Part shown: piece after piece, positions 28,867 to 57,953 of the stretch
How the letters are laid out: the number at the start of each line of letters is the position of its first letter
How positions within the stretch are numbered: the first letter of the stretch is position 1
From: Chrysomallon squamiferum
Lineage: Eukaryota; Animalia; Mollusca
Length of the DNA stretch: 64,000 nt
Assembly: GCA_012295275.1 (NCBI GenBank)
Contig: CM022672.1
Coordinates: 34,906,001-34,970,000 of the forward strand
Direction: 5' to 3'
Program-made: the position numbers and the translations under genes
Notes under the pieces: model-generated
What the model was told of the DNA's origin: nothing
Databases searched by the model: none
What the model saw: only the letters and a program-made list of their open reading frames with translations

Positions 28867-31800
28867 ATGGCTGGGTGCTGGATAAGTCTTCAGTTTCTAG
28901 TTTGTTTTTTGATTTTGCAGTCAGGACAGATAACAGCTGAATCTAGTAAGTTATAAAACATCTGTATTATTATTTTCATCATTATTATTATTATTATTAT
29001 TATTATTATTATTATTATTAGTAGTAGTAGTAGTAGTAGTAGTAGTAGTAGTAATAGTAGTAGTAGTATCAGTGTTGTTCTGATGTTGATACTGGTGGTT
29101 GTGGTGATGGTACATTGTTGAGAGAATTAGACAAATCAAATACCAGGAAGACGTATACCAGTGAATATGAATACACGTGTCAGAACAGCGATATCAATCT
29201 AAACAGCTGGGAATATGTTACTGTTCTTGAAATATAAACAAGTTCAACAACTACAGTAATAATATCATTTCATTAAAGATACTAACAATCAATAACATAA
29301 TGTTTTGAAGCTGAACATATTTTCATTTCTATTTTAATTATCTTTTGTCTTCTTTCATGTAAATCTGTCGTTTATTTTTACAGCGTTAGCAAAAGTATGA
29401 ACAAAGTTTCTATTTATTATTTAGTGTACGAGAAAAGGACCCTGATATACGCGCTTGATGAGTTACTTGACAACTTTAATATACGTTGATAACAAATACT
29501 TACAGAAACAAATACCAGCACAGAATATTTCTAACTAAACTGTAAACTGTTTTGATCTTCACTACAGCAAGTACAAAACATAACGCTAGACATAATTCTT
29601 TCACTGTAATTATACTTTTCTGTATATGAAGCCTTTCCTCATTTAACTCAAGTAAGGACACGATTTTAGTTTAAACGACTGAATGCTGTTAGTAAAATAT
29701 AAAAGAAAATAGTTATACAGTAAATAAATGCTGCAACAAGGCTGTTATTCCTATACAAAATTATATTAACTCTACTGTAGAGATACTGTGATAACTAGAC
29801 AGTAAATATAATAATTATGCACAATTATTATGATTATCACTATGAGGAGTAATAACATATCTTATATAGTATATTTAATACAAGTATTTTGAATACTCAG
29901 GCAATCTATTAGACTAGAGGTACACTGGAAAATACAAAAATTACAATAAATATTAATAATATTACATAGTTACATTTCAGTAGAAACATTCATATTACAG
30001 ACATATGAAAATAAATTATTTTATTAGTTTAATATCAAAACAGTTGTTATGCTGTTGTCACCCAGACCTGTAATTTAAAACTCTTTGTTTAGATTTGCTG
30101 CACTGATTCCTTCCTTCGTCATCCTTTATTTTCTTCGTTAGTTTTTAAATGCAAAACAAACAGAGAGATAAATGAAGGGATATACTTACAAAAGACAAAT
30201 GAGTTATTTGCTTTCTTTATTTATGTTTTAGCTTGTCAGTCAGGTACAACTTATGGTACTAAGTGTGACAAACTGTGTAGAGATCGTCACTGTTTGAATT
30301 CTCAACAAAGCTGTCCTACAGACACTGGATCATGTAGTGGACAATGTCAGACAGGCTGGACTGGAGATGACTGTACAGGTAACTAAACATTTTAGCACTT
30401 TTCTGGAACAAGAACAACAAATATATATATATATATATATCCATAAAATGAAAAAAAAAAAAAAAAAATTAAAAAGAATAAACGGCTTTAAAATGTCTAT
30501 GTAATTCTAATTTGAACTGGCAGCTTTTCTTTCCTTTGGGTGAGTGAGAGAGAAGCGAGATAAAAACACAGAAATGTACAGAGAATTTATGCTAAGATTA
30601 AAATATCGGAACAGATTCAATCGATATTTTATGTTTTTCATTTAATTATTATTCCTTCTGTGTCATGTTTTGGAGCAAATTCTTTCCAAACTTGAGTAAA
30701 ACACATACGACATTTTATTTATAGTTTTATGAAAGTTAATTTACATGTACGTATCAAACTATGTTTTATTATGTCAGAACAGCCAGTCACACTGTGTGTG
30801 TATATGCAGTTTTATATATATAAATATATATTAATTGTGTTTTAAATATATCTGGCTATTTTTGTTGTTATTCTGTACTTGATTTGGTGTGTTGATCAGT
30901 CAGTCAGTTGATGGTTGCTAATCTATATTGTTGACTGATACATTTTACTTTTATTATTTTTATTATATAATCAGTTTAAAAGCTGTGGCATGTTACAAGT
31001 TTGAATCTTTCGTGTCCAGGGTTAAACACAGTAGCTTTTAATCTAAAACTAGATTTAATTTTATGCGACTTGAGAATAATATTCTCTGCAATGTCAAAGT
31101 TAGTTTAAACACTTCTCTTTTTTGTTGTTTTCTATGTTTTCTTAATATTTTTCTTAATGTTTATAAAGATAATATATATTTGTAAAATAAAGTACAGTCG
31201 TGCGATATAAAGACACATTATTTTCTGTTAGTCTTTATTTCTTGTCATTTGTATTAATCTTGTTTAAAAAAGAAATAACTACACTAGTACATTTCTAACT
31301 AAAACCAAATACATTATTTCATTTAATATATTTCTTCGATGCTTTCAGTGTGTCAGTCAGGTACAACTTATGGTACTAACTGTGACAAACTGTGTAGAGA
31401 TCGTCACTGTTTCAATTCTCAACAAAGCTGTCCTACAGACACTGGATCATGTTATGGACAATGTGAGACAGGCTGGACTGGAGATGACTGTACAAGTAAT
31501 CAGACATTTTAGCTGTGACTATCTTTAGATAAGGAATCCAACTCTGTAATGAATAACATCTATTAATAATTTTACTATGATTTGAAATCGTTTTAAAATT
31601 TGGTATCAATATCTATACTTAGAATTAACTGATATTTGAACCATTGTTTTTTTTAATTATTTGTTATGTTCGTCATGTCCTATTATAATATGGACACAAG
31701 TGATTATAAGTAGTTGTGACGATAACAGTAAATATTAATATATTGATATTTAACTTTCAAATAATGTACGAAGTTAAATGACATATTGATAATATTGTTT

Positions 31801-56300: not shown

Positions 56301-57953
56301 TGTAGATACACACACACATATAGAGAGAGCTTTTGTTTTTATTATTCCTAGTTTAATTCAGTGTAATGTGTATTTATATGTAAATATGATTATTTCCAAA
56401 AGAAATGAAATCGTAAATCTGCGGTTAGTTTGATTATTTTCGTTTTGTTTTGAACACACAATCGTTTACCAGCCTTCTAAAACTCGTAGGTATATATACA
56501 ATAGCGTTTTAATAAATATATCGAATTATATTACAGGACAAATGGACAAATATTTTACGTTAAAGTAACCTTTATTATTAAATTTATTGATACCATCCAT
56601 GGGTTTTTTCAGAATTTACAGTTAAAATATTTTTCTCTGACATTTCAGTTGATAAGCGAGATAATTCCGTCTCCAGGAAATTCTGTACAACGTGGTGAAA
56701 CCACAATCACTGCTTTTAAAGAGACATCAGTCATACACGAGATAAACCAGAAGACGTTACAAGTTGAGACAAAGGTATCTTTCTGAATAGCAATTTATTT
56801 AATTCGTATGTCGCTTTTAGTACAGGTAATTGCGCAGCAAGATGTTTTTTCATTCATTTCTATGGTTGGAAATAAAACATAACCATTATATAAGACACAC
56901 ACACACACACGCGCACAAAACTAATACACACATATATATAGTAATTTGCATTTTCTATTTACTTAGAATATGCGTCTTGTATTAATTTCATATATTTGTA
57001 TATTTTTATTTAATCTTAAACAATATTTATGTTGTAATTAAGGGCAGTACAGAAAAACGAGAGATAGAACATTTCTGTATTCACGGATGGTTGCCAACCA
57101 CTGACTCTGTCACACTGATAACCTGTCTGACAACAACCAGTGAACACATTCAAACACAACAGGGAAAAGGGAAGATACATCCTGTCACAGTTATATACAG
57201 GTCCGTGGATTTGTTCTGTTTATTTTTAATAAATAACACTATTAAAAAAAGAAACATTAGTTACTAAAATATATCAGAATGAAACTTCAAAGAATATATA
57301 TTAATTATCTTACACAAGGTAGAAATTAGCACACTGTGTTATTTTATAAAATGACGAGCTAAATGTTCCAGAAGCTGTTTCTAACAGTATTCTGTTTAAT
57401 TTGTTACAGAGAAAGTGAAGCTAAAAACGCTCTAACTCTGTGTATCGCAAACAACATCTTGTCTGGTATTCGGCTGGATTCAGAAGTTGAGATATTCAAC
57501 AATATTAGACGATTTCAGTCAGTGATTCCAAGGGTAGAGTTCACCAAGGTAAATACTATTTTAAATAATTTTACTGATTGAAGAAAATATTGGTTTCCTT
57601 CTTAAAATGCTCTCTCTCTCTCTCTCTCTCTCTCTCTCTCTCTCTCTCTCTCTCTCTCTCTCTCTCTCTCTCTCTCTCTCTCTCTCTCTCTCTCTCTCTC
57701 TCTCTCTCTCTCTCTCTCTCTCTCGTTTTATGTATTATCAATAAATCTTATTGAATTACTAATCGGCTTGAATCTAGATATTTAATTTTATAATCTAATA
57801 TTTATGCTGTTAGTTAATATTTCCCTATTAAATTGTGTAATAGAATGAAACATATTGTCTTTGCTTATTGTATTTCAGGATGACTTTACATTTTTCTGTA
57901 ACTTGGCCTTCATGAATCTAGAAGCATCTTCAGTTTATGCCAACAGTCCTTGA
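41388..57953 (+). CDS. Gene C: receptor-type protein tyrosine phosphatase with F-type lectin + EGF-repeat ectodomain
   Basis: Exons: 41388-41466 signal peptide; 44582-44788 and 45916-46137 FTLD; (47090-47131 truncated EGF); EGF 47231-47383, 47776-47928, 48363-48509, 48629-48769, 49150-49293, 49827-49970; TM 50158-50257; juxtamembrane 51001-51086 and ~51267-51556; PTP D1 51896-55286; PTP D2 55509-57953; stop TGA at 57951-57953. The frame is continuous across GT/AG junctions. Confidence 0.92.
44582..46137 (+). CDS. Gene C F-type lectin domain (2 exons, 207 and 222 nt)
   Basis: ASRGVDG..VIHTD..WWEVDL..IYFRYDNKWRR..RYVTVY..EVEVY; H-x27-R-x-D-x4-R resembles the FTLD fucose-binding motif. Confidence 0.88.
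50158..50257 (+). CDS. Gene C transmembrane exon
   Basis: VIAPPQHTNAIIGSVVGFTVVLILVVVLVVIMR, followed by RRGKFK in the next exon. Confidence 0.88.
51896..55286 (+). CDS. PTP domain D1 (catalytic motifs intact)
   Basis: Exons 51896-51983 (KNRY), 52381-52457 (DYINASYI), 52793-52829 (FIAAQ), 53047-53144 (DFWRMIWE..IVMLT), 53554-53679 (KCEPYW), 54142-54287 (WPDHGVP..VVVHCS), 54551-54686 (AGIGRTG..QRRGLVQT), 55140-55286 (EQY). Confidence 0.95.
52641..52734. repeat. (GA)n microsatellite preceded by (TG)n
   Basis: Pure run. Confidence 0.95.
54863..54928 (+). other. Chimeric 66-nt in-frame candidate exon created by a 277-bp tandem duplication
   Basis: aacag|EQYETVFSALLELSTLGLVQTK|gtcaga; phase 0-0. 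Confidence 0.75.
55509..57953 (+). CDS. PTP domain D2 (degenerate, non-catalytic) and C-terminus
   Basis: Exons 55509-55542 (or 55572), 55861-55925, 56165-56281 (FWKLVTENSSRTII), 56649-56774, 57043-57200 (GWLP..PVTVIYR), 57410-57548, 57879-57953 (..SSVYANSP-stop). Confidence 0.8.
57610..57724. repeat. (CT)n microsatellite
   Basis: Pure run. Confidence 0.95.

What the first reader, a model, noticed from the sequence alone, without database searches (positions are those of the whole stretch)
28867..57953. Candidate paired receptor system: same ectodomain cassettes on an ITAM-like tail (gene B) or a tyrosine phosphatase (gene C), plus a possibly secreted form (gene A)
Seen: adjacent genes B and C share the signal exon and six closely similar EGF exons (36200-36343 vs 49827-49970 differ at only 3 of 144 nt), but have unrelated TM and cytoplasmic parts. 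B ends in a Tyr-motif tail; C ends in an active PTP D1 plus D2. Gene A shares the lectin and EGF exons but shows no TM. Known: vertebrate paired receptors (KIR, LILR, SIRP, Siglec) couple similar ectodomains to activating or inhibitory outputs, and Draper/MEGF10 signal through Src and Syk/Shark. Inference: an invertebrate activating/inhibitory/decoy set in which the inhibitory member carries its own phosphatase, plausibly for glycan-based immunity, phagocytosis or self/non-self recognition.
Basis: partly seen in the sequence, partly recalled or inferred. Interest (0 to 1): 0.9.

Follow-up and report, generated by a model that had tools for sequence, protein, structure and literature searches.

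The report
Snail paired receptors: ITAM versus phosphatase
Two neighbouring snail genes share nearly identical outer EGF repeats but end inside the cell in either a twin-tyrosine tail or a tyrosine phosphatase, a pairing also present in a related snail, so they likely act as an on/off receptor pair, although this genome's tail-bearing copy carries a stop codon.

Summary
B and C are as described: shared signal exon, six EGF exons 93-99% identical, unrelated membrane and cytoplasmic parts. C has an intact PTP D1 and a dead D2; B ends in YxxL-x10-YxxI. New support: Gigantopelta aegis has both types. Its pair is 91% identical outside the cell but only about 53% identical to the window's; 57 informative sites group by species, none by tail type. 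Tails and phosphatases follow type across species, as in vertebrate paired receptors. RNA contigs splice a B-type membrane exon to the long tail.

Corrections: gene A lies outside the given coordinates, on the minus strand, and is cut by the window edge, so 'secreted' is unsupported. B has lost the lectin and carries a stop in one EGF exon; the expressed B-type copies are other alleles or paralogues. C's splicing was not tested. The architecture is published for Biomphalaria (SudRes1, LG5R); I found no published ITAM/phosphatase pairing. This scan noted the same idea on another genome. Signal polarity is inferred only. New variant of a known kind; interest 0.62.

The parts
28867..28945 (+). 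Gene B signal-peptide exon
   Evidence: 72/79 nt identical to C's
30232..36343 (+). Gene B: eleven phase 1-1 EGF-like exons a1 30232-30378, a2 31349-31495, b 32251-32394, c 32575-32727, d 33202-33354, e 33730-33876, f 33994-34134 (in-frame stop at 34062), g 34480-34626, h 34761-34901, i 35510-35653, j 36200-36343; no lectin exons
   Evidence: joins c-d, d-e, e-f, f-g, g-h, h-i seen in RNA contigs laid at 90% likeness, so paralogues count too
30011..30231 (+). Deletion scar in B intron 1 (junction near 30126): the lectin exons present in A are missing
   Evidence: blastn of A introns on B intron 1
37292..37400 (+). Gene B transmembrane exon
   Evidence: hydropathy 2.7; covered by RNA contigs that differ from it at 6 listed sites
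37870..38053 (+). Truncated duplicate tail exon (60 aa, one tyrosine, no twin motif), cut by about 200 nt of unrelated sequence
   Evidence: a TM-to-this-exon loose end in run X4
38343..38652 (+). Gene B long tail exon, 102 aa, Tyr codons at 38449, 38539, 38590, 38632; last two form YxxL-x10-YxxI
   Evidence: TM-to-tail joins in runs X1 and X2; 43/101 identical to the Gigantopelta tail, all four Tyr kept
41388..41466 (+). Gene C signal-peptide exon
44582..46137 (+). Gene C F-type (fucolectin-like) domain, exons 44582-44788 and 45916-46137; His-x27-RxD-x4-Arg kept
   Evidence: Pfam PF22633/PF00754; PDB hits 3cqo, 3le0, 2j1r; motif
47231..49970 (+). Gene C: six EGF-like exons c 47231-47383, d 47776-47928, e 48363-48509, f 48629-48769, i 49150-49293, j 49827-49970
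50158..51556 (+). Gene C transmembrane exon (50158-50257) and juxtamembrane exons (51001-51086, 51270-51556)
51896..55286 (+). Gene C PTP domain D1 (8 exons): KNRY loop, WPD loop, C(X)5R loop and Q loop intact, predicted active
   Evidence: Pfam PF00102 on three exons; 274.7 bits against a D1 profile; 160/216 identical to Gigantopelta D1
55509..57953 (+). Gene C PTP domain D2 (7 exons; the first two are the least certain): catalytic Cys and WPD Asp replaced, pseudophosphatase; C-terminal YxN motif; stop ends at 57953
   Evidence: 31.7 bits, E 2e-11 against the D1 profile; 150/265 identical to Gigantopelta D2 region
1..11725 (-). Gene A, incomplete at the window edge: signal 11647-11725, lectin 9477-9686 and 8542-8763, EGF exons b 5949-6086, a 4142-4291, 2670-2816, 1589-1735, e 1023-1169, g 386-532; damaged EGF exons near 4817-4952, 806-903 and 258-275
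17506..18394 (+). B': broken second B-type TM exon (17506-17615, 1-nt insertion) and tail exon (18085-18394, stop at 18182), just after the N gap 16876-17075

Best explanation
B-type and C-type genes are a likely on/off receptor pair: gene conversion likely keeps their outer parts alike, the B tail would be phosphorylated by a Src-family kinase and recruit Syk/Shark, and C's own phosphatase domain would damp that signal at the same ligand contact. Shown: the shared ectodomain exons, the two cytoplasmic types, their conservation in a second snail, ectodomains grouping by species, and splicing of a B-type TM exon to the long tail. Inferred: shared ligand, co-expression in one cell, phosphorylation, Syk binding, and C acting on B. 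The locus is a tandem birth-and-death array of F-lectin/EGF receptors. The B copy in this assembly lacks the lectin and has a stop in a frame-neutral EGF exon, so it is either a null allele or works only with that exon skipped; the working partner of C is probably a lectin-bearing B-type copy.
For: Gigantopelta PTP member P0002 and tail member P0157 share 349/383 ectodomain residues. Over four matched EGF repeats: window B/C 175/188, Gigantopelta pair 163/180, cross-species 96-100/180-181; informative sites 57 by species, 0 by tail type, 0 other. Lectin tree groups by species, 100/99 and 98/88. Tails are conserved by type (43/101, all four Tyr; shuffle 0 of 1000), as is D1 (160/216; 100/97 clade). 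B/C synonymous differences 10/184 against 211/1310 in four shared introns, Fisher p 3.5e-5: exons are more alike than their introns. In Gigantopelta the PTP gene P0002 is closer to the tail gene P0157 (84/93) than to the other PTP gene (50/90). This is the pattern described for vertebrate paired opposing receptors (PMC3210942, abstract). The motif fits the ITAM form YxxI/L-x6-12-YxxI/L given for Draper (PMC6219719), and an oyster ITAM receptor with a similar ending co-precipitates Syk (PMC6994640). RNA contigs join TM to long tail in 2 of 4 runs; an X1 contig over 38452-38642 has five differences, none in the twin motif.
Against: Window B lacks the lectin that C has, carries a stop and a Trp-to-Ser change in exon e. 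All four RNA runs read Gln at the stop, and listed RNA variants match B' at 5 of 6 TM sites and 6 of 9 tail sites, so expression of this B copy itself is not shown. The four runs are one study, contigs only, no cell resolution. C's splicing from signal to PTP is untested. The last Tyr also fits an ITIM, and Gigantopelta has a second ITIM-like Tyr; the x10 spacing fails the stricter x6-9 consensus used for Hydractinia Alr. The second Gigantopelta tail and PTP genes (P0006, P0001) share only 56/91 in repeats i+j, so homogenisation is not general. B/C pN/pS is 0.037/0.054, not strongly constrained. Only two species carry the recognisable tail.
Confidence: 0.5

Rival explanations
1. Cooperative pair: C works like PTP-alpha/epsilon or CD45, removing the inhibitory phosphate of a Src kinase at the ligand contact, so it would prime rather than damp the B tail.
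For: Closest solved tandem domains of the Gigantopelta homologue are PTP-epsilon, LAR and PTP-alpha. PTPRK activates Src by Tyr527 dephosphorylation (PMC12067748 passages). C ends in a YxN motif found in the last 16 residues of 89 of 139 fetched PTP-signature proteins; its likeness to the Grb2/Src site of PTP-alpha is recalled, not checked.
Against: Draper triggering needs exclusion of transmembrane phosphatases from the contact (PMC6219719); a phosphatase with the same ectodomain would be expected to stay in and oppose it (inference).
Confidence: 0.2
2. B is an endocytic scavenger or an inhibitory/decoy receptor: its tyrosines are YxxPhi sorting signals or ITIMs, and it clears or competes for the ligand of C.
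For: Last Tyr fits (S/I/V/L)xYxx(I/L/V) in both species and the first does in Gigantopelta. Biomphalaria relatives are annotated as scavenger class F-like (PMC13712769 section 20). Draper has an ITIM isoform that binds Corkscrew (PMC8092387). That YxxL/I also reads as a sorting signal is recalled.
Against: The spacer between the two Tyr motifs is kept at exactly 10 residues and is the best-conserved part of the tail in both species, as tandem-SH2 docking would require (inference).
Confidence: 0.15
3. No functional pairing: unequal crossing-over and conversion in a tandem array mix symmetric EGF exons among all neighbours, and the likeness of B and C is a by-product.
For: Many dead cassettes in A, B, B' and C. 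A is as close to B and C as they are to each other (exon e 146/147 to both). pN/pS 0.68. Biomphalaria SudRes1 shows recent duplication and EGF loss among paralogues.
Against: Both cytoplasmic types are kept in two species while ectodomains were reset in each. Likeness is higher in exons than introns. In Gigantopelta the tightest pair crosses types.
Confidence: 0.15

Closest known systems
[quoted passage not shown]
   Same: Clustered single-pass receptors with signal peptide, EGF repeats, optional fucolectin/galactose-binding domain, and either a short tail or tandem PTP domains; copy-number change and EGF loss. B matches 1A, the Gigantopelta tail gene 1B, C matches 1C.
   Different: Those papers describe the short tails as without identifiable signatures; 'ITAM' does not occur in either main text. 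Here the tail has a conserved twin-Tyr motif and cross-type ectodomain homogenisation is measured. Orthology to the Biomphalaria genes was not tested.
Vertebrate paired opposing receptors (KLRC/NKG2, KLRA/Ly49, PIR; Siglec-11/16)
   Same: Adjacent genes, ectodomains homogenised after speciation, cytoplasmic types older than the species split (PMC3210942 abstract).
   Different: F-lectin/EGF ectodomain; the candidate activating motif is in the receptor's own tail; the opposing member carries its own phosphatase instead of an ITIM that recruits SHP-1/2; opposing function untested.
Draper / MEGF10 / CED-1
   Same: EGF-repeat ectodomain and a widely spaced ITAM-like pair (Draper Tyr 15 apart, here 14).
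   Different: No EMI domain and no NPxY seen in B; an F-type lectin in intact copies; Draper's brake is an ITIM splice form plus Corkscrew, not a paralogue with a PTP.
Oyster CgIgR (PMC6994640) and Hydractinia Alr (PMC9546547)
   Same: Invertebrate receptors with ITAM tails; CgIgR binds Syk; Alr family has ITAM and ITIM members in one cluster.
   Different: Ig-type ectodomains; no phosphatase-bearing partner described in the passages read.
PTP-alpha/epsilon and LAR-type receptor phosphatases
   Same: Tandem D1 (active) and D2 (inactive) domains; best PDB matches of the Gigantopelta homologue.
   Different: Lectin/EGF ectodomain; D2 far more degenerate; subfamily membership not tested by a tree with vertebrate sequences.

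Membership tests
Molluscan MEGF/F-lectin RPTP cluster (SudRes1, LG5R 1C) | Signal peptide, galactose-binding/fucolectin domain, EGF repeats, one TM, two PTP domains | tested here: met
   Gene C; description
Molluscan MEGF/F-lectin RPTP cluster (SudRes1, LG5R 1C) | Clustered with MEGF paralogues lacking PTP | tested here: met
   B and B' next to C; Gigantopelta and abalone types share a chromosome-scale record
Molluscan MEGF/F-lectin RPTP cluster (SudRes1, LG5R 1C) | Orthology with the Biomphalaria genes | not tested
   No Biomphalaria sequence was identified among the hits
Paired opposing receptors | Near-identical ligand-binding regions on adjacent genes | tested here: inconclusive
   Met for six EGF exons and for the whole Gigantopelta ectodomain; not met for the lectin in window B, which has lost it
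Paired opposing receptors | Ectodomains group by species, cytoplasmic parts by type | tested here: met
   57/0/0 informative sites; two species only
Paired opposing receptors | Shared ligand, same cells, opposite signals | not testable with these tools
   Needs binding, single-cell and signalling assays
ITAM receptor | YxxL/I-x6-12-YxxL/I | tested here: met
   x10 in window B and both Gigantopelta tail genes; consensus
ITAM receptor | Strict spacing x6-9 | tested here: not met
   Consensus in PMC9546547; spacing here is 10
ITAM receptor | Src phosphorylation and Syk/Shark binding | not testable with these tools
   No phospho-binding assay; the genome is not held, so Syk/Shark presence was not checked
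F-type lectin | His...RxD-x4-(R/K) fucose triad and hhDGx cation motif | tested here: inconclusive
   C keeps the triad with 27 spacer residues (review gives 24) and a DG motif; A and the Gigantopelta copies do not match the full triad pattern
Classical receptor PTP | D1 with KNRY, WPD, C(X)5R and Q loops | tested here: met
   alignment; activity itself untested
Draper/MEGF10/CED-1 | EMI domain and NPxY motif | tested here: not met
   Neither seen in the B model or the Gigantopelta tail proteins; features
Secreted decoy (gene A) | Stop or transcript end after the EGF exons with no TM exon | tested here: inconclusive
   The gene runs off the window about 95 nt before the expected last EGF exon

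The most novel reading that the evidence does not exclude
Gastropods have a paired-receptor system in which one F-lectin/EGF ectodomain, kept identical by gene conversion, is wired either to an ITAM or directly to a receptor phosphatase. The inhibitory partner is its own enzyme and, sharing ligand and height with the ITAM receptor, cannot be excluded from the contact. The schistosome-resistance clusters of Biomphalaria would then be such on/off arrays.
Probability: 0.4. Interest if true: 0.85.

Novelty: new variant of a known kind. Interest (0 to 1): 0.62.

Why it matters
The same receptor architecture lies under two genome-wide association peaks for schistosome resistance in Biomphalaria, where no signalling model exists for the members without a phosphatase. 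A conserved ITAM-like tail and cross-type homogenisation give a testable model: resistance or symbiont tolerance set by the ratio and alleles of ITAM-type and PTP-type copies. It would also extend paired-receptor evolution to molluscs with a different inhibitory design.

Tried and rejected
Secreted gene A: rejected as an edge effect. Isoforms of one gene instead of two genes: rejected, B and C have separate signal exons and introns about 16% diverged. Window-B tail as query found no relative among 214 candidates; the Gigantopelta tail region found only two Gigantopelta proteins among 276. Abalone P0028/P0158 has lectin, EGF, TM and a twin-Tyr tail (x9) and shares a scaffold with PTP genes, but tail homology is not established (7-12 of 1000 shuffles reach the score against B, 159-170 against Gigantopelta), so it is a lead only. 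Of 17 fetched proteins with a TM and no PTP signature, 5 had the twin motif (four Gigantopelta records from two genes, one abalone); the set came mostly from a PTP-bearing query and includes truncated models. ESM Atlas on the TM and tail gave MEGF10/SCARF-like mollusc clusters at 0.88-0.91, leads only. No genome is held, so copy number and Syk/Shark were not searched. RNA support for gene C's exon chain was not obtained. Run X5 was never laid. No ORF of 100 aa or more lies between B' and B in 19400-23000. No structure or complex prediction was run. Literature: searches gave no paper on an ITAM/PTP pair in molluscs; 'ITAM' has 0 hits in both Biomphalaria main texts and in the supplements searched (10 of 27 files; 10 of 11); the library omits most subscription papers.
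Full report
Source and layout. The window is AT-rich animal DNA with microsatellites and one 200-N gap at 16876-17075. No whole genome is held. The nearest named relative is the gastropod Gigantopelta aegis (78-81% identity over the second lectin exon). I read 1-24000 and 28400-64000 directly and built gene models from numeric coordinates. 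Order: gene A on the minus strand (11725 to below 1), gap, a broken B-type end (B', 17506-18394), a 4.5-kb satellite, gene B (28867-38652), gene C (41388-57953).

Observation. B and C share the signal exon and six EGF exons at 91-99% nucleotide identity; the quoted pair differs at 3 of 144 nt. Their TM exons and cytoplasmic parts are unrelated. C gives an open 1149-aa frame. Its lectin matches Pfam PF22633/PF00754 and solved F-type lectins and keeps His-x27-RxD-x4-Arg, against the published HX24RXDX4(R/K). D1 has all four catalytic loops; D2 is PTP-derived but has lost the catalytic Cys. B has eleven EGF exons, a TM exon, a truncated tail exon and a 102-aa tail exon whose last two tyrosines form YxxL-x10-YxxI, seen in 124 of 20000 shuffles.

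Gene A is outside the stated range. Its last 262 nt match the intron before exon j of C up to position 438 of 533, so the window stops about 95 nt short of the next exon and the missing TM means nothing. A's EGF set (a, b, e, g, remnants of f and h) resembles B's more than C's. B has no lectin: its first intron is a fusion of two A-like introns. B's exon f has a stop at 34062; since all EGF exons are phase 1-1, skipping it would keep the frame. B' has a frameshift in the TM exon and a stop in the tail.

RNA. Five runs hold small shares of the region; I laid the four RNA runs, one study, contigs only, on 32400-38900 at 90% likeness. They join c-d-e-f-g-h-i, and also f-i, c-i and f-e, and join a B-type TM exon to the long tail in X1 and X2 and to the short-tail start in X4. 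All four read Gln at the stop. Of the 40 variants shown (70 more were not shown) I mapped 35: 5 of 6 in the TM exon and 6 of 9 in the tail match B' rather than B. One X1 contig places a different last EGF exon before the TM exon. So intact B-type transcripts with the twin motif exist, but this copy is not shown to be their source. Gene C's exon chain has no RNA test.

Second species. Gigantopelta has PTP members (P0002 = XP_041357574.1, P0001) and tail members (P0004/P0156/P0157 = XP_041359117-9, P0006), all on one 102.9-Mb record; adjacency was not measured. The tail is 43/101 identical to B's with all four tyrosines and the 10-residue spacer kept. D1 is 160/216 identical to C's. Outside the cell the pattern reverses: P0002 and P0157 share 349/383 residues; over four matched repeats window B/C share 175/188, cross-species pairs 96-100 of 180-181, and 57 informative sites group by species, none by type. 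The lectin tree of 37 domains agrees (the P0004, P0156 and four abalone isoform rows were left out as redundant). Within the window, B/C synonymous differences (10/184) are a third of those in four shared introns (211/1310; p 3.5e-5). Both cytoplasmic types therefore predate the split of the two snails, and ectodomains were reset in each lineage. Against generality: P0001 and P0006 share only 56/91 in repeats i+j, and an abalone twin-Tyr receptor beside PTP genes has a tail not shown to be homologous.

Mechanism. Most likely (0.5) the B-type tail is an ITAM read by Syk/Shark after Src phosphorylation, as shown for Draper (PMC6219719, passages) and for oyster CgIgR (PMC6994640, passages), and C brings an active D1 to the same contact and damps it. 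Draper triggering depends on excluding transmembrane phosphatases; a phosphatase with the same ectodomain would not be excluded (inference). Rivals: C primes Src (0.2), B is endocytic or inhibitory (0.15), or the likeness is a by-product of array turnover (0.15). No step of signalling is shown.

What is known. The architecture and clustering are published: LG5R subgroups 1A-1C (PMC13712769, passages and section 20) and SudRes1 MEGF/GBD RPTPs (PMC12297450, passages). Homogenisation of ligand-binding domains in opposing receptors is published for mammals (PMC3210942, abstract and outline only; other titles in listing 58). ITAM and ITIM tails in one invertebrate cluster are published for Alr (PMC9546547, passages). 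Also read as passages: PMC5712786, PMC8092387, PMC12067748. Searches found no paper on an ITAM/PTP pair in molluscs; 17 of 27 supplement files of PMC13712769 and 1 of 11 of PMC12297450 were not searched. Look-ups returned nothing.

Verdict. A real, conserved two-type receptor array with the evolutionary signature of paired receptors; decoy gene A unsupported; this B copy damaged; polarity unproven. New variant of a known kind, interest 0.62.

Noticed in passing
window 1-16875 versus 17076 onward: The contig left of the N gap is inverted relative to B and C: 15904-16875 and 14230-15226 match the 3' flank of C (58269-59295, 60866-61888). Flipped, the order would be C-like flank, A, B', B, C on one strand, and A and B' could be one lectin-bearing B-type gene split by the gap.
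   Followed up: partly
window 6733-7725, minus strand: Decayed Tc1/mariner-like transposase fragments in an intron of gene A (family named from recall).
   Followed up: no
window 31926-32291: Five 72-nt copies of the acceptor and first part of EGF exon b, giving several decoy acceptors upstream of the real exon.
   Followed up: no
window 44294-44345, 47090-47131, 54863-54911, 36822-36922: Partial or decayed exon copies: duplicated start of lectin exon 1, truncated EGF exon b and duplicated start of the last D1 exon in C; a dead EGF exon before B's TM exon.
   Followed up: partly
window 38036-38218: Sequence inserted between B's two tail exons is covered by RNA contigs that run on into unrelated sequence on both sides, likely a dispersed repeat.
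   Followed up: partly
window 37398-37400 joined to 38343: B-type TM ends in an Arg followed by five hydrophobic residues and then basic residues, conserved in Gigantopelta; possibly an intramembrane charge.
   Followed up: no
window 23097-23557, 40528-41021, 12039-12712: A conserved block of about 500 nt lies upstream of the signal exons of A, B and C; in B it is separated from the gene by the 4.5-kb satellite, which might affect B's expression.
   Followed up: no
window 9477-9686 versus 44582-44788: A and C lectins differ at the predicted fucose triad (His replaced and spacing changed in A), so paralogues may differ in sugar specificity.
   Followed up: partly
window 18612-19237 and 38955-39421: The same 55-nt minisatellite follows the tail exon of both B' and B.
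   Followed up: no
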